Notes: a model not told the origin generated them from the letters alone. Shown: positions 11,101 through 36,410, numbered from the stretch's first letter. The stretch: 64,000 nt of DNA from a bacterium (GCA_963645945.1 CAVIUA010000003.1:149-64148); one strand, 5' to 3'. Translations and numbers: made by a program.

Positions 11101-11712
11101 TTATTCAGCTTGAGAATATACTAATGTTACACCCAAGTTAGAAATTGTTACATCTGCTGATGGTAATAGATTTGAATCAGTAAAATCTTTATATTTTAAA
11201 GTTAATACCATGTTTCTAGTTTCATCTTTTGCTAATGTATCTCCAACTGCTACTGCTTGTCCTGCCTTAGCATCTCCTGCAGCATATACTAATGTATACT
11301 CAAGTTTATCACATACTTTTGTAGCATCTGTTGCTGCTGTTGCAGCTCCTGTTTTTCCTGTACAAGTTGGTGTAGGAATTGTTACAGTACTTATTTTTGC
11401 ATTGTAAGTTCCTGTATTTGAAACAGCTACATTATAACTAACTGAATCTCCAGGTGTCTTAAATGTTACATTATAGGTTTGAATTACTGTATCAGATAAA
11501 GTTGGTGCAGTTACTTCTGTTGCTGTACCTGTCTTTACTGCATTTCCTAAATTACTGAATTTTACTTTCCATGATGATGTTTGTACTGATGCATTACCAT
11601 TAATAGTTAATGTTTCACTAAATGCTGCAAAACCAATACCAATAGCAACTATTGAAATAATTAGGGCTGCAACAACTAGTACTTTCATTTCTCTTCCATT
11701 ATTTTCTTTCAT
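11101..11712 (-). CDS. secreted TasA/camelysin-like fibre-subunit candidate with SipW-cognate-type signal peptide
   Basis: 203 aa. A basic N-terminus and TM are followed by IGFAAFSETLTINGNASV. It has a conserved Cys pair (PTCTG...VC) and the C-terminal strand ISNLGVTLVYSQ. Strong RBS AAGGAGAA. Confidence 0.6.
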   Translation of the reverse strand: MKENNGREMKVLVVAALIISIVAIGIGFAAFSETLTINGNASVQTSSWKVKFSNLGNAVKTGTATEVTAPTLSDTVIQTYNVTFKTPGDSVSYNVAVSNTGTYNAKISTVTIPTPTCTGKTGAATAATDATKVCDKLEYTLVYAAGDAKAGQAVAVGDTLAKDETRNMVLTLKYKDFTDSNLLPSADVTISNLGVTLVYSQAE

Positions 11713-11726
11713 ATTTTTCTCCTTCT

Positions 11727-12314
11727 TTAACTTTGTGAATAAATTATTGATGCAGATAAATTGGTAAGTTCAACTCTTTCTGTTGGCCAGGTATTACCAA
11801 TGTATCTCATAATAAGTTTTAGGGTTTTCTTACTACCTGCTGGTAGTAAATCATCTATCATTATTCTTGACCCGTTTGCATAATATAGTTCATATTTGAA
11901 GCTATTACAGACTGTTTCGGCATCAGTAACGGCAGTTGTAATATCTTCTGATACTCCCTTACAAATTGGATCCAAAATTGATATTGTTGAAACTTTAGCA
12001 TCTAAATTGCCATCGTTTACAACGTTAAATTCATAGGCAACAACATCTGTCTTACTACTAAATTCAACTTTAAATCTATCGATACTTGTTGAATTTTTGT
12101 TAATAATTGGCCTACTTACTTCTTGAGCCTTTCCTGTTATTTGGACTTTGGATAAGTTTTCAAAATGGATATCCCATTTTCCATTGTTGACACTAGATGC
12201 GTAGCCAGATATTTTCACGGTTGAACTAATGGCAACTAATGATACTCCTAACCCGAGAATAGCAATTATCAATGTGACAACGACTATCAGTTTGTTCAAG
12301 TTCTTATTATTCAT
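11727..12314 (-). CDS. secreted fibre-subunit-like paralog
   Basis: 195 aa with a TM then ISSTVKISGYASSV, the same Cys pair (PICKG...VC) and the C-terminal LTNLSASIIYSQS. It aligns with 11101-11712. Confidence 0.55.
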   Translation of the reverse strand: MNNKNLNKLIVVVTLIIAILGLGVSLVAISSTVKISGYASSVNNGKWDIHFENLSKVQITGKAQEVSRPIINKNSTSIDRFKVEFSSKTDVVAYEFNVVNDGNLDAKVSTISILDPICKGVSEDITTAVTDAETVCNSFKYELYYANGSRIMIDDLLPAGSKKTLKLIMRYIGNTWPTERVELTNLSASIIYSQS

Positions 12315-12439
12315 AATATTCTTCAGAGTTCTTTTTTCCTATTCACTTACCTCCCATCCTAAGTTATTTTTGGTAGGTACTCAAATGTTGTTTTCCATCA
12401 CGCTGAAATCTATGCATCAATTTCACACCCTACTATTTA

Positions 12440-12468
12440 ATGATAGCAAAATTTTTATGTTTTGTAAA
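12440..12468 (-). promoter_or_regulatory. candidate sigma-A promoter for fibre locus A (TTTACA-N17-TATCAT)
   Basis: -35 at 12463-12468 and -10 at 12440-12445 on the minus strand, ~125 nt upstream of the 11727-12314 start. Confidence 0.35.
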
Positions 12469-12607
12469 TACTTGACAAGTGTGTTTTTTTCAAGTTTTTG
12501 AAACTTTTTTTGAGTATTTGATCAATTATAAATATTTATTTATTTAAGTACCTTTTATTATTTAACTATTTATAAGAATACTTTACACAAATAATGTAAA
12601 GTTTTAG

Positions 12608-34911: not shown

Positions 34912-34930
34912 TGTTTTTCACCTCTTTATT

Positions 34931-35527
34931 TTACATTGTTTGACCATAGTTAATTGTAATATCAAGATTAGATACAGCTACATCATTGTTTGGTAATTCT
35001 TCAGCTGTTATATCATCTTTATAAGTTAGTGTTAATATAAGTGATTTTGATGTTTCTTGATTTAAAATATCTCCTACATTTAAGGTTGTTCCATCAGAAT
35101 AAGTAAGAGTATATGTTAAATGTGAACATACATTATTGGCATCATTTACGGCGTTATCACCTGTTCCTGTACAACTTGGTGTTGATATGTCTAATGAAGT
35201 AATTTTTGCTTTAAATGTCCCTTCATTAGCAACATCAAATGTATAAGAAACAGAGTCTCCTGGTGTTGTAAATTTTACATTATAGCCAGAAAGTGTTGTA
35301 CCTTTTTCATTTATTTCTGGTGCTGTTATTTCTTCAGCAGTTCCAAGTAATGTTGCGGATGATAGGTTTTTAAACTTAATTACCCAGGACGAATGATTAA
35401 CAGTTGCTTCACCATTGATATTTAAGGCATCACTAAAAGAGGCATAACCTACAGTTATTGCTACTGTTGATACAATAAGAGCTACTATTAAAGCTATTTT
35501 ATAGTTAATGCTTTTTCTTCTCATCAT
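34931..35527 (-). CDS. secreted TasA/camelysin-like fibre-subunit candidate
   Basis: 198 aa with VGYASFSDALNINGEATV, the Cys pair PSCTG...VC and C-terminal VSNLDITINYGQ. It aligns along its full length with 11101-11712. RBS AAGGAGAA. Confidence 0.6.
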   Translation of the reverse strand: MMRRKSINYKIALIVALIVSTVAITVGYASFSDALNINGEATVNHSSWVIKFKNLSSATLLGTAEEITAPEINEKGTTLSGYNVKFTTPGDSVSYTFDVANEGTFKAKITSLDISTPSCTGTGDNAVNDANNVCSHLTYTLTYSDGTTLNVGDILNQETSKSLILTLTYKDDITAEELPNNDVAVSNLDITINYGQTM

Positions 35528-35545
35528 AACCCGTTCTCCTTTATA

Positions 35546-36157
35546 TTAATTACAACTTGAACTAGTACTTTGCCTGTATATTACATTAATTGAAAGATTT
35601 GATATCGTTACATCGGCTACTGGTAGTTCCTCTGCTGTTACTTCTTCACTATAACTTAAAAGTACGCGAAATTGATCGGTTGCGTTTGGTTTTAGTATTT
35701 TACCTGTTTCTATTTGATTTCCTGATGTATCAGTTAAGGTATATGTTAAATGTTTGCATACGTTTGCGGCATCATTAGTTGCATTTGTACCTGTACCAGT
35801 ACACACTGGTGTTGGTATTACAATACTTTCTATTTCAGCACAAAACGTACCTTTATTTTCAACATCAACAATATAACCAGCAAAGTCTCCAGGAGCTGTT
35901 AGACTTACACTATAGTTTCCTATAGTTGTTTTATTAGTATCTATTGATGGATGAGTTATTTCTGAGGCAAGTCCATTTAAATAAGCTGTTGATACATTTG
36001 TAAACACTACATTCCAACTAGAACTTTTAACACTAGCTGACCCAGAGATAGTTAGACTTTCACTAAATGAAGCATATCCTATGGCGATTGCTGTTACTAT
36101 TACTATCAATGTTCCAATTACAGTTATTTTTATATTTTGATTTGATCCTCTTCTCAT
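35546..36157 (-). CDS. secreted TasA/camelysin-like fibre-subunit candidate
   Basis: IGYASFSESLTISGSASV, the Cys pair PVCTG...VC and C-terminal ISNLSINVIYRQS. I prefer ATG 36157 (MRRGSNQ, 9 nt after AAGGAGA) to the track start at 36190. Confidence 0.6.
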   Translation of the reverse strand: MRRGSNQNIKITVIGTLIVIVTAIAIGYASFSESLTISGSASVKSSSWNVVFTNVSTAYLNGLASEITHPSIDTNKTTIGNYSVSLTAPGDFAGYIVDVENKGTFCAEIESIVIPTPVCTGTGTNATNDAANVCKHLTYTLTDTSGNQIETGKILKPNATDQFRVLLSYSEEVTAEELPVADVTISNLSINVIYRQSTSSSCN

Positions 36158-36410
36158 ATTGTTCATTCTCCTTGTATTATAATATAACATAAAAATACTA
36201 ATATGTCGATAATTTCATCATAGATGTTAATCCTTTTTTTAAATGTATACACTAATGAAGTTATATTATACCTTAAAAGGAGTACAAGCGATAATAGATA
36301 ATTAAAAACAACTTGAACAAGTTTTAAGAGAAAGAAATAAAAGATTAAAAGCAAGGGTTAATATGATGTGAACCCAAATCGGTAGGCATCTAAAAAAAGC
36401 AAATATAAAA

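What the first reader, a model, noticed from the sequence alone, without database searches (positions are those of the whole stretch)
11101..36190. Seven secreted proteins share one N-terminal signal plus amphipathic beta-strand motif, a possible donor strand
- **Shared motif.** Immediately after the hydrophobic segment, seven proteins carry a similar sequence:
  - IGFAAFSETLTINGNASV (203 aa)
  - VGYASFSDALNINGEATV (198 aa)
  - IGYASFSESLTISGSASV (214 aa)
  - LVAISSTVKISGYASSV (195 aa)
  - IGYAATSTDKVTINGHATA (186 aa)
  - IGYAAMQSTISVSGSVSS (775 aa)
  - IGYSALNTSLNISGDMSL (784 aa)
- **Signal class.** The G-[YF]-A-x-F-[ST]-[DE] part resembles the SipW-cognate signal class, as in TasA ..TWAAFND (from memory).
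- **Beta-strand pattern.** The following alternating pattern x-L-x-I-x-G-x-A-x-V is what a beta-strand looks like.
- **Donor-strand model.** In TasA fibres and archaeal bundling pili the processed N-terminal strand is donated to the next subunit. If that holds here, both large proteins could be incorporated into the same polymer as the small subunits.
- **Extra conserved features.** Four small subunits also share a Cys pair (P-x-C-[TK]-G ... V-C) and a conserved C-terminal strand.
Basis: partly seen in the sequence, partly recalled or inferred. Interest (0 to 1): 0.6.

Follow-up and report, generated by a model that had tools for sequence, protein, structure and literature searches.

The report
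AbpX/TasA-like donor-strand fibre subunit family
The seven proteins are real members of a large, unnamed family of secreted fibre subunits and tip proteins, related to the archaeal AbpX and bacterial TasA biofilm fibres. Their shared N-terminal motif most likely holds a cleavage site for a dedicated signal peptidase, followed by the strand each subunit inserts into its neighbour. This kind of system was described in 2022-2026, so it is a new member, not a new kind.

Summary
**Observation: confirmed and extended.**
- All seven ORFs exist on the minus strand and carry the motif.
- The genome holds 11 members.
- The similarity is not limited to the motif. The first ~150 residues of the large proteins are homologous to the whole small subunit (hhalign 98.5%).

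**Interpretation: largely supported, by homology rather than direct test.**
- The small-subunit profile matches Pyrodictium abyssi AbpX over 160 columns (hhalign 94%). AbpX has a solved cryo-EM fibre that polymerises by donor-strand complementation.
- The motif is in the same register: AbpX ..LTYA|QWSETLSLSATIS versus window ..IGFA|AFSETLTINGNASV.
- The gene neighbourhood matches that reported for abpX loci: multi-TM SipW-type signal peptidase, DUF5305 accessory protein, minor subunits and large 'tip' proteins. There are three such cassettes in a 1.3-Mb genome.
- AF2 folds the core confidently but leaves the most conserved segment, the motif, unplaced.
- Donor-strand fibre subunits (TasA, AbpA, Fim/Pap pilins, thread, Tafi) recur among the weak best Foldseek hits.

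**Caveats.**
- Pfam TasA and NCBIfam models do not hit.
- Fold scores are weak (TM about 0.3).
- My single-chain self-complementation test did not dock the strand.
- No oligomer model or experiment exists.

**Verdict:** new member of a recently described kind. Interest is moderate.

The parts
35546..36190 (-). Small subunit, 214 aa as the longest ORF (probable true start 36157). Predicted cleavage after GYA (aa 40). Predicted donor strand SFSESLTISGSASV = 36029-36070.
   Evidence: ORF. 49% identical to the 198-aa paralogue and part of profile A2. AF2 core pLDDT above 90.
34931..35527 (-). Small subunit, 198 aa. Predicted cleavage after GYA (aa 29). Predicted donor strand SFSDALNINGEATV = 35399-35440. 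Mature pI 4.2.
   Evidence: AF2 model pLDDT 85.6 with the motif unplaced. Foldseek top hits are the TasA fibre and AbpA. A2 against AbpX scores 94%.
32557..34911 (-). Large family member, 784 aa. Signal, then strand ALNTSLNISGDMSL (34780-34821), then a subunit-like domain (about aa 11-152), then a ~600-aa C-terminal extension with a weak DUF6273 hit. Candidate tip or nucleator subunit.
   Evidence: The N-terminal family against A2 gives hhalign 98.5%, E 3.7e-15, 141 columns.
23305..23865 (-). Divergent small subunit, 186 aa, no Cys pair. Predicted strand ATSTDKVTINGHAT = 23743-23784. First gene of cassette B.
   Evidence: A2 profile E 9.5e-6 over positions 10-162. hhalign 95.5%.
22132..23265 (-). 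Dedicated SipW-type signal peptidase I, 377 aa, with a ~250-aa polytopic N-terminal domain (cassette B).
   Evidence: TIGR02228 at 82 bits against a cut-off of 51.85. Pfam S26. 8 hydrophobic segments.
21021..22115 (-). DUF5305 accessory protein, 364 aa, two TM segments (cassette B).
   Evidence: PF17231 E 2.2e-11. TM segments. Genome count of three, one beside each SipW-type peptidase.
18704..21031 (-). Large family member, 775 aa. Signal, then strand AMQSTISVSGSVSS (20915-20956), then a subunit-like domain, then Ig-like regions, then a Hint-like domain starting at the single Cys (precursor residue 479), then a C-terminal tail. It overlaps the DUF5305 gene by 11 nt.
   Evidence: weak, sub-threshold Hint/intein hits. 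The N-terminus against the 784-aa family gives hhalign 98.3%, 158 columns. Cys position.
11727..12314 (-). Small subunit, 195 aa, with an atypical junction ..GVSLVA|ISSTVKISGYASSV (12189-12230). -3 is Leu, so cleavage is less certain. Possibly a specialised or anchored subunit.
   Evidence: The same atypical junction is conserved in relative L010 and in representative P0122.
11101..11712 (-). Small subunit, 203 aa. Predicted cleavage after GFA (aa 29). Predicted donor strand AFSETLTINGNASV = 11584-11625.
   Evidence: BLASTP against AbpX gives 30% identity over 109 aa, E 2e-4, aligning ..GFAAFSETLTI with ..TYAQWSETLSL.
9878..11047 (-). Dedicated SipW-type signal peptidase I, 389 aa, with a polytopic N-terminal domain (cassette A).
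   Evidence: TIGR02228 at 89.7 bits against a cut-off of 51.85. Pfam S24/S26.
8151..9875 (-). DUF5305 accessory protein, 574 aa (cassette A). It starts 2 nt after the peptidase stop. A terminator-like hairpin follows at 8131-8152.
   Evidence: PF17231 E 1.7e-23. Gene gaps. Terminator.
30582..32460 (-). OmpR-type response regulator (31774-32460) and histidine kinase (30582-31787), directly downstream of the 784-aa gene. A possible regulator; association is inferred only.
   Evidence: Pfam. The preprint reports two-component systems in bacterial abpX neighbourhoods.

Best explanation
**What it is.** The window encodes three clusters of one system for building extracellular protein fibres of the TasA superfamily. 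Its closest characterised relative is AbpX. Each precursor has three N-terminal elements:
- a short basic N-terminus;
- one hydrophobic helix;
- the junction [small]-[Y/F]-A | x-[F/L/M]-[S/T]-x-x-L-x-I-x-G-x-A-x-V.

**Proposed mechanism.**
1. The precursor is exported by Sec and held in the membrane by its signal helix (inferred).
2. A dedicated SipW-type signal peptidase, which carries an extra polytopic domain and is paired with a DUF5305 protein, cleaves after the Y/F-A (inferred from the -3/-1 pattern and from TasA and AbpX).
3. The freed N-terminal ~14 residues form an amphipathic beta-strand. Its even positions (2, 6, 8, 10, 12, 14) insert into the groove of the neighbouring subunit's beta-sandwich, giving a head-to-tail, donor-strand-complemented fibre (inferred by homology to AbpX, TasA and BsaA).

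**Roles of the members.**
- The 198-, 203- and 214-aa proteins, with F2 and E/D4 as in AbpX and TasA, are the likely major subunits.
- The 186- and 195-aa proteins are likely minor or specialised subunits.
- The 775- and 784-aa proteins carry the same signal, strand and subunit-like domain followed by about 600 residues of other domains. They probably join the fibre as tip, nucleator or cargo-displaying subunits, as TapA and the abpX-locus 'tip proteins' are thought to.

**Shown here:** the homology, the locus architecture, motif conservation and the fold class.

**Not shown:** the cleavage site, polymerisation, and co-polymerisation of the large proteins.
For: **1. Homology to a solved donor-strand fibre.**
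- Small-subunit profile A2 against AbpX alone: hhalign 93.9%, E 1.6e-7, 168 columns.
- A2 against an AbpX family alignment: 94.3%, E 9.5e-8, 160 columns.
- BLASTP of the 203-aa protein against AbpX: 30% identity over 109 aa, E 2e-4.

**2. Motif register.** It is identical to the AbpX donor strand W2/E4/L6/L8/A10/I12 and its ..TYA|QWSETL junction (preprint 10.64898/2026.01.04.697558). TasA's donor strand is likewise residues 28-38, at the mature N-terminus (PMC9674648).

**3. Locus architecture.** It matches that described for abpX loci: multi-TM SPase I, DUF5305, minor subunits and tip proteins.
- The genome holds three SipW-type peptidases, each beside one of its three DUF5305 genes. Two pairs lie in this window.
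- A separate housekeeping LepB-type peptidase is also present.
- The cassette order subunit(s), peptidase, DUF5305, further motif-bearing protein is conserved in distant metagenomic loci L021, L022 and L024.
- Clusters C and A are contiguous in relative L010.

**4. Conservation.** Conservation extends to +14 and on to +23, far beyond what a peptidase site needs.

**5. AF2 monomer.** The core is above pLDDT 90, but the motif has pLDDT around 50 and no strand. The preprint reports the same behaviour for the AbpX monomer.

**6. Foldseek hits** for two independent models recur on donor-strand subunits among weak, generic hits: TasA fibre 8aur, AbpA 7ueg, FimG/FimI, PapG pilin domain, thread 7pnb, Tafi 9p0a.

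**7. Large proteins.** They carry a homologous subunit-like domain (hhalign 98.5%, 98.3% and 98.9%).
Against: - Curated models do not place the proteins. There is no Pfam or NCBIfam hit for the small subunits. PF12389 (TasA) gives only a sub-threshold 15.6 bits on one paralogue.
- The link to AbpX is 94%, not above 99%, at about 17% identity.
- Foldseek similarity is weak (best E 6.9e-4, TM 0.26-0.36), and generic beta-sandwiches also appear among the hits.
- My self-complementation mimic did not dock. It was a natural read-through of the in-frame 214-aa and 198-aa genes: core, linker, then the next subunit's strand. The strand stayed at pLDDT below 50.
- The acidic +4 residue that binds calcium in AbpX is present in only three of the seven proteins. 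It is not among the five commonest residues at +4 (each 4% or more) across the family.
- A second site that obeys the -3/-1 rule exists after G10-x-A12. Cleavage there would remove the strand.
- No anchor (LPXTG or SLH) was found in these proteins.
Confidence: 0.72

Rival explanations
1. **Recognition tag plus cis strand.** The conserved motif is a recognition or export tag for the dedicated peptidase-DUF5305 pair, plus the first intramolecular strand of each domain. The proteins would be released as monomeric surface or secreted proteins (adhesins, enzymes) that do not polymerise.
For: - The self-complementation mimic did not dock the strand.
- The AF2 core is confident without any added strand.
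- Fold matches are weak.
- Many family members are long multidomain proteins.
Against: - If the strand were intramolecular, AF2 should place this most conserved segment, but it does not.
- Conservation of an alternating pattern out to +14 exceeds what a signal peptidase I site needs.
- The proteins are homologous to AbpX, where the same residues are the donor strand.
- Multiple tandem paralogous small subunits are typical of fibre systems.
Confidence: 0.15
2. **Uncleaved anchor.** The N-terminal helix is an uncleaved signal anchor, so the proteins are membrane-tethered. The motif would be a juxtamembrane stalk, and the neighbouring peptidases would act on other substrates.
For: - The 195-aa protein has a poor -3/-1 site (LVA).
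- The BsaA model proposes a membrane-anchored intermediate before SipW cleavage (PMC11580942).
Against: - -1 is Ala in 90% and -3 is small in 95% of family representatives.
- The peptidase gene is conserved next to the subunit genes in distant loci.
- TafD and SipW are experimentally needed to process TafA, TasA and BsaA (PMC11821415; PMC9674648; PMC11580942).
Confidence: 0.08
3. **Other pilin classes or chance.** The proteins are type IV pilin-like or sortase-assembled pilins, or the similarity is chance or low complexity.
For: One distant locus (L024) lies next to pilC and a prepilin peptidase. Sortase-like genes exist elsewhere in the genome.
Against: - There is no class III signal (G|F..E5) and no LPXTG or C-terminal anchor in any of the seven proteins.
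- The motif follows the hydrophobic segment rather than preceding it.
- Shuffles give 0.04 hits against 9 observed.
- 7266 representative clusters match the profile.
Confidence: 0.02

Closest known systems
AbpX of Pyrodictium abyssi and AbpX-like loci of archaea, Bacillota and Chloroflexota (Sleutel et al., bioRxiv 10.64898/2026.01.04.697558, January 2026)
   Same: - Profile-level homology over nearly the whole subunit.
- The same junction and strand register (..TYA|QWSETLSLSATIS against ..GFA|AFSETLTINGNASV).
- Aromatic +2 and acidic +4 in three subunits.
- A multi-TM dedicated signal peptidase I, a DUF5305 accessory protein, minor subunits and large tip-like proteins.
- A two-component system nearby.
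- Acidic mature proteins.
   Different: - Only about 17% identity, and not detectable by database-scale BLAST.
- The family consensus has T/Q/S at +4 and often L/M at +2, so calcium-bridged docking is probably not general.
- The disulfide loop is at a different place.
- No SLH or LPXTG anchor in the loci.
- Mature pI is 4.2-5.9 rather than about 4.0.
- Three cassettes and 11 members in a 1.3-Mb genome.
TasA / TapA / SipW of Bacillus subtilis (Boehning et al. 2022, PMC9674648)
   Same: - A SipW-type peptidase in the operon.
- The donor strand starts at the mature N-terminus (A|AFND.. against A|AFSE..).
- A beta-sandwich subunit; the TasA fibre is the top Foldseek hit.
- An accessory protein (TapA) shares the donor-strand sequence, as the large proteins do here.
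   Different: - The Pfam TasA model (PF12389) is not met (15.6 bits against a 22.5 cut-off, on one paralogue only).
- B. subtilis SipW has no extra polytopic domain (per the preprint's contrast with two-TM SPases), and no DUF5305 was found in the B. subtilis control genome.
- The large proteins here carry a full subunit-like domain.
BsaA / SipW of Clostridium perfringens (PMC11580942)
   Same: A Firmicute SipW operon with TasA-like subunits. Donor-strand exchange from a disordered N-terminus. The published model has the signal-anchored monomer accepting a strand before SipW cleavage.
   Different: BsaA locks subunits with an Asn-Lys isopeptide bond catalysed by Glu. No invariant Lys is present in the alignment here, and Asn at +9 is only 49% conserved. 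Homology to BsaA was not tested.
Tafi (TafA/C/E, TafD peptidase, TafG DUF5305) of haloarchaea (PMC11821415; PMC12337348)
   Same: A dedicated multi-TM signal peptidase paired with a DUF5305 protein. Donor-strand fibre with minor subunits. The Tafi pilus 9p0a is among the Foldseek hits.
   Different: Tafi subunits use Tat export, whereas the signals here have no twin-arginine motif. The TafD domain order differs (peptidase N-terminal).
Chaperone-usher pilins (Fim/Pap)
   Same: An N-terminal extension with alternating hydrophobic residues and a conserved Gly (G10 here, the P4 Gly in Pap/Fim from general knowledge). FimG, FimI and the PapG pilin domain are among the Foldseek hits.
   Different: The host is an uncultured Bacilli-class bacterium, and no periplasmic chaperone or outer-membrane usher gene was seen among the ORFs around these genes. 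The resemblance is in mechanism only, not membership.

Membership tests
AbpX-like clade of the TasA superfamily | Sequence homology of the subunit to AbpX | tested here: met
   hhalign of A2 against AbpX gives 93.9%. Against the AbpX family alignment it gives 94.3%, E 9.5e-8, 160 columns. BLASTP gives E 2e-4. The homology is probable, not beyond doubt.
AbpX-like clade of the TasA superfamily | Amphipathic N-terminal donor strand with an aromatic residue at +2 and an acidic residue at +4 of the mature protein | tested here: inconclusive
   Met by the 198-, 203- and 214-aa subunits (SFSD, AFSE, SFSE). Not met by the 186-, 195-, 775- and 784-aa proteins. The family logo shows +2 F/L/M and +4 T/Q/S. 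The alternating L6/I8/G10/A12/V14 pattern is strongly conserved.
AbpX-like clade of the TasA superfamily | Dedicated signal peptidase I with many (about ten) TM helices in the locus | tested here: met
   Two genes in the window and a third on contig C8. TIGR02228 scores of 89.7 and 82 bits. 6-8 strongly hydrophobic segments by a crude hydropathy scan; the exact TM number was not determined.
AbpX-like clade of the TasA superfamily | DUF5305 accessory protein next to the peptidase | tested here: met
   PF17231 E 1.7e-23 and 2.2e-11. Three DUF5305 genes in the genome, one beside each SipW-type peptidase. The same pairing occurs in distant loci.
AbpX-like clade of the TasA superfamily | Polymerisation by donor-strand complementation | tested here: inconclusive
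   No multimer tool was available. The single-chain read-through mimic did not dock the strand. The AF2 monomer leaves the strand unplaced, as the preprint reports for AbpX.
AbpX-like clade of the TasA superfamily | Acidic mature protein (pI about 4, about 15% Asp+Glu) and calcium sites | tested here: inconclusive
   Mature pI 4.2-5.9 and Asp+Glu 8.6-15%. Calcium sites could not be assessed.
TasA / camelysin family (Pfam PF12389 Peptidase_M73) | Match to the family HMM above its gathering score | tested here: not met
   No hit for the seven proteins at E<=0.01. The best in the whole genome is 15.6 bits on the C8 paralogue, against a cut-off of 22.5. The B. subtilis control is found.
SipW-cognate signal class (NCBIfam signal models) | Match of the N-terminus to a curated SipW-cognate signal model | tested here: not met
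   No relevant NCBIfam model hit the seven N-termini, even at E<=10. I could not verify that such a model is in this release. The junction does resemble TasA's TWA|AFND.
Sortase-assembled Gram-positive pili | C-terminal LPXTG sorting signal and a pilin motif | tested here: not met
   No LPXTG with a C-terminal TM and basic tail in any of the seven proteins.
Type IV pilins | Class III signal cleaved before the hydrophobic segment (G|F/M...E5) | tested here: not met
   The pattern is absent, and the motif lies after the hydrophobic segment.

The most novel reading that the evidence does not exclude
The signal, strand and subunit-like module may be a general 'plug-in' that loads very different cargo proteins onto one fibre scaffold. 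Family representatives reach 2180 aa with the module at the N-terminus. Here the cargo would be a 784-aa protein and a 775-aa protein whose Hint-like domain could cleave itself and release its C-terminal tail from the fibre tip. On this reading a reduced 1.3-Mb gut bacterium uses the fibres as a modular display or delivery platform rather than only as biofilm matrix. The mostly non-acidic +4 position would imply calcium-independent docking, unlike AbpX.
Probability: 0.2. Interest if true: 0.7.

Novelty: new member of a known kind. Interest (0 to 1): 0.42.

Why it matters
- **Size of the gap.** Donor-strand fibres outside Gram-negative chaperone-usher pili were recognised only from 2022 (TasA, AbpA, threads, Tafi, BsaA, AbpX). 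This window shows that a very large family belongs to the same class. The family has 7266 clusters at 50% identity matching the profile, and the window's small subunits match no Pfam or NCBIfam model.
- **Host biology.** The family is a major investment for a small-genome, uncultured gut member of the Bacilli: 11 genes and 3 peptidase cassettes in 1.3 Mb.
- **Annotation.** It gives a concrete rule: N-terminal [YF]-A|x-[FLM]-[ST]-x-x-L-x-I-x-G next to a polytopic SipW and a DUF5305 protein.
- **Testable predictions.** The mature N-terminus, SDS-stable polymers, and the large proteins acting as tip subunits.
- **Limit.** The kind of system and its locus architecture are already published, so the advance is incremental.

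Tried and rejected
**Curated libraries.** NCBIfam and Pfam gave nothing for the small subunits, apart from a weak DUF7538 hit and a spurious LptC hit. N-termini alone at E<=10 gave only noise.

**PDB sequence searches.** The A2 profile hit only the designed WD40-like proteins Ika4 and Ika8, a chance match of a beta-strand pattern, which I rejected. The two large proteins hit nothing.

**Collection scans.** The search for related loci failed with the alignment because no block was conserved enough. Single-protein scans of genome and metagenome contigs returned only 2 loci each.

**Pseudo-dimer test.**
- I planned one chain made by reading through the single TAA between the in-frame 214-aa and 198-aa genes.
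- MAFFT put all short homologues on one half, so I dropped that design.
- I ran a self-complemented mimic instead: core, linker, then the next strand.
- The strand was not docked. I count this as inconclusive, not as evidence for strand exchange. The linker contains a signal helix, and the tail had only 5 alignment rows.
- Loci L018 to L020 could not add fusions because their gene pairs are out of frame.

**Promoter scan.** It was uninformative in this AT-rich DNA, with counts equal to shuffles.

**Isopeptide lock as in BsaA.** No invariant Lys is present, so I did not pursue it.

Full report
**1. The observation**

An alignment shows the common plan:
- a short basic N-terminus;
- one hydrophobic segment;
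- [I/V]-G-[Y/F]-[A/S], followed by x-x-x-x-x-L-x-I-x-G-x-A-x-V.

A regex for the motif finds 9 of 1484 ORFs of 80 aa or more in the whole 1.3-Mb assembly. Eight are true members and one is a spurious ORF. Every hit is within the first 70 residues, and shuffled N-termini give a mean of 0.04 hits. The regex is post hoc, so the real proof is homology:
- The four Cys-pair subunits are 33-49% identical.
- A profile of them (A2) also recovers the 186-aa protein and the 784-aa protein.
- It recovers four further members outside the window: C8 195 aa, C8 622 aa, C24 897 aa and C14 179 aa.

The Cys pair and the C-terminal strand are invariant or near-invariant columns. The 214-aa ORF probably starts at its 12th codon (36157), as its homologues do.

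**2. The neighbourhood**

Two genes inside the finding are SipW-type (archaeal/ER-type) signal peptidases I. Their TIGR02228 scores are 89.7 and 82 bits against a cut-off of 51.85. Each has an extra N-terminal polytopic domain of about 250 aa. Each is followed by a DUF5305 protein (E 1.7e-23 and 2.2e-11).

| Cluster | Gene order (minus strand) |
|---|---|
| A | 195 aa, 203 aa, peptidase 389 aa, DUF5305 574 aa |
| B | 186 aa, peptidase 377 aa, DUF5305 364 aa, 775 aa |
| C | 214 aa, 198 aa, 784 aa, then a two-component system |

- Intergenic gaps within the clusters run from -11 to 53 nt.
- A third full cassette lies on contig C8: 195 aa, peptidase 383 aa, DUF5305 367 aa, 622 aa.
- The genome has exactly three DUF5305 genes, one beside each SipW-type peptidase, plus a separate housekeeping LepB-type peptidase.
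- In a related MAG (L010, 'uncultured Bacilli bacterium') clusters C and A are one contiguous array. This explains why cluster C has no peptidase of its own.
- In distant metagenomic loci the order subunit(s), S26 peptidase, DUF5305, further motif-bearing protein is conserved.

**3. The family**

- A word-indexed search finds 73 close relatives, none carrying a Pfam domain. The only name any source gives them is 'hypothetical protein' from a 'Bacilli bacterium' MAG.
- An exhaustive profile search finds 7266 representative clusters at E<=1e-3 and 4429 at E<=1e-10. Many are long proteins (350-2180 aa) with the module at the N-terminus.
- The logo from 144 of the 149 best representatives is:
  - -3 A/G/V, -2 Y/F (91%), -1 A (90%);
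  - +1 A/S/G, +2 F/L/M, +3 S/T, +4 T/Q/S;
  - +6 L (97%), +8 I (91%), +10 G (94%), +12 A/G, +14 V (71%);
  - +19 W (85%), +23 F (86%).
- This is a canonical -3/-1 signal peptidase I site, followed by an amphipathic strand whose even positions are hydrophobic or small.
- Among species representatives of the class, the family is concentrated in the window's own small-genome family: 17 of the 18 positive genomes out of 300 sampled. It is present in most genomes of the genus.

**4. Link to known systems**

The literature search for DUF5305 led to the Tafi papers and to a January 2026 preprint on Pyrodictium abyssi AbpX.

What the preprint reports:
- AbpX forms donor-strand-complemented, calcium-bridged fibrils, solved by cryo-EM.
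- Its donor strand is W2-I12 (W2, E4, L6, L8, A10, I12).
- abpX-like loci in archaea and bacteria encode an unusual ~10-TM signal peptidase I, a DUF5305 'SPase accessory' protein, minor subunits and tip proteins.
- The AbpX precursor in the supplement reads ..LTAIGLTYA|QWSETLSLSATISTGS. The window's 203-aa protein reads ..VAIGIGFA|AFSETLTINGNASVQTS.

My comparisons:
- hhalign of A2 against AbpX gives 93.9% (E 1.6e-7, 168 columns).
- Against an alignment of five AbpX homologues it gives 94.3% (E 9.5e-8, 160 columns).
- Pairwise BLASTP gives 30% identity over 109 residues, E 2e-4, including the PG...F.v.N.GT..A block.

TasA's donor strand is likewise residues 28-38, directly at the SipW-generated N-terminus. 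TapA shares that strand and is thought to nucleate the fibre (PMC9674648). BsaA of C. perfringens is a further SipW-dependent donor-strand polymer (PMC11580942).

**5. Structure**

- AF2 on the 198-aa precursor with 24 sequences gives mean pLDDT 85.6. Residues 45-198 form a confident beta-sandwich with one helix in the disulfide loop. The motif (27-45) has pLDDT around 50 and no secondary structure. The preprint describes the same behaviour for the AbpX monomer.
- Foldseek against the PDB ranks the TasA fibre 8aur first (E 6.9e-4, probability 1.0). Next come AbpA 7ueg, FimG and the Sulfolobus thread 7pnb, with the Tafi pilus 9p0a further down.
- A second model (214-aa core) again brings AbpA, the PapG pilin domain, FimI and TasA.
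- The scores are weak (TM 0.26-0.36) and generic sandwiches are interspersed. This is supporting evidence, not decisive.

**6. The large proteins**

- The N-terminal ~150 residues of the 784-aa family align to the small-subunit profile at 98.5% (E 3.7e-15, 141 columns). The difference is essentially the missing disulfide loop.
- The 775-aa and 622-aa N-termini align to the 784-aa family at 98.3% and 98.9%.
- So the large proteins are a signal, a strand and a subunit-like domain, followed by about 600 residues of other domains. The 784-aa protein has a weak DUF6273 hit. The 775-aa protein has Ig-like regions and weak, sub-threshold Hint-like hits.
The most economical reading is a tip or nucleator role, as for TapA and the abpX-locus tip proteins. 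That role is inferred, not shown.

**7. An in-silico complementation test that failed**

- No multimer tool was available. The 214-aa and 198-aa genes are in the same frame, separated by one TAA and six codons.
- I therefore used the natural read-through as a single chain that mimics the published self-complemented AbpX: the 214-aa core without its own strand, a linker, then the 198-aa signal and strand.
- The core folded (pLDDT above 90), but the C-terminal strand stayed below pLDDT 50 and undocked.
- The linker contains a hydrophobic helix and the tail had only five alignment rows. I read this as inconclusive, but it does not add support.

**8. Membership and novelty**

- Curated TasA and SipW-signal models are not met.
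- AbpX-type features are met for homology, peptidase type, DUF5305 and locus plan.
- They are only partly met for the aromatic +2 and acidic +4 signature (three of seven proteins; D/E is not among the five commonest residues at +4 family-wide) and for acidity (mature pI 4.2-5.9).
- There is no LPXTG or type IV pilin signal.
- The system is therefore best filed as a new, remote member of the AbpX-like branch of the TasA superfamily. It is possibly a sister clade with calcium-independent docking.
- An earlier agent of this scan reached the same assignment for the peptidase genes. I arrived at it independently through the DUF5305 literature before reading that note.

**9. Verdict**

- The kind of system is already described. 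What is new is the size and unannotated state of this bacterial family, and its density in a reduced gut genome.

Noticed in passing
window 41854-54306: A class B penicillin-binding protein gene (SpoVD-like) is split into two pieces, 53212-54306 and 41854-42723. Between them lies about 10.5 kb carrying a large serine recombinase (42761-44344) and unrelated genes. In relatives L009 and L010 an intact 634-aa ORF lies at the end of the conserved gene block upstream of the fibre cluster, at the position corresponding to the split gene; I did not check its sequence. This is a skin-element-like arrangement.
   Followed up: partly
window 18704-19600 (C-terminal third of the 775-aa protein): A Hint/intein-like domain (weak, sub-threshold Pfam hits; it begins at the protein's only Cys) is followed by a C-terminal tail of unknown function. 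This suggests self-cleavage of a fibre-associated protein.
   Followed up: partly
L010 7374-15551 compared with window 8151-36190: In a related MAG, clusters C and A form one array: 204 aa, 200 aa, 801 aa, 194 aa, 205 aa, peptidase, DUF5305. In the window they are about 20 kb apart. The gap holds the two-component system, an ABC transporter, an HtrA-like protease, cluster B and other genes, which implies rearrangement or insertion.
   Followed up: partly
genome contig C14 47-586 (outside the window): A divergent 179-aa family member has GFA|MLSMQLEE and lacks the L-x-I-x-G strand pattern. It sits just downstream of the mraZ-rsmH-PBP genes. It is the member most widely conserved across the genus, including genomes with no other member.
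   Followed up: no
representative P0080 (4825 aa): The central part of the subunit fold (profile positions 66-146) occurs 37 times in tandem in one giant protein, and UniRef labels AbpX 'CARDB domain-containing'. The core sandwich is therefore also used as a repeat module.
   Followed up: no
window 24012-25406: A 464-aa, mostly transmembrane protein with a C-terminal LuxR/GerE HTH (E 3.1e-13) lies directly upstream of cluster B, separated from it by a strong terminator (23977-24004). It is a possible regulator.
   Followed up: no
window 36157-36209: The best promoter-like site of cluster C (36181-36209, with an extended -10 TG) overlaps the 5' end of the longest 214-aa ORF. This supports the shorter start at 36157.
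   Followed up: no
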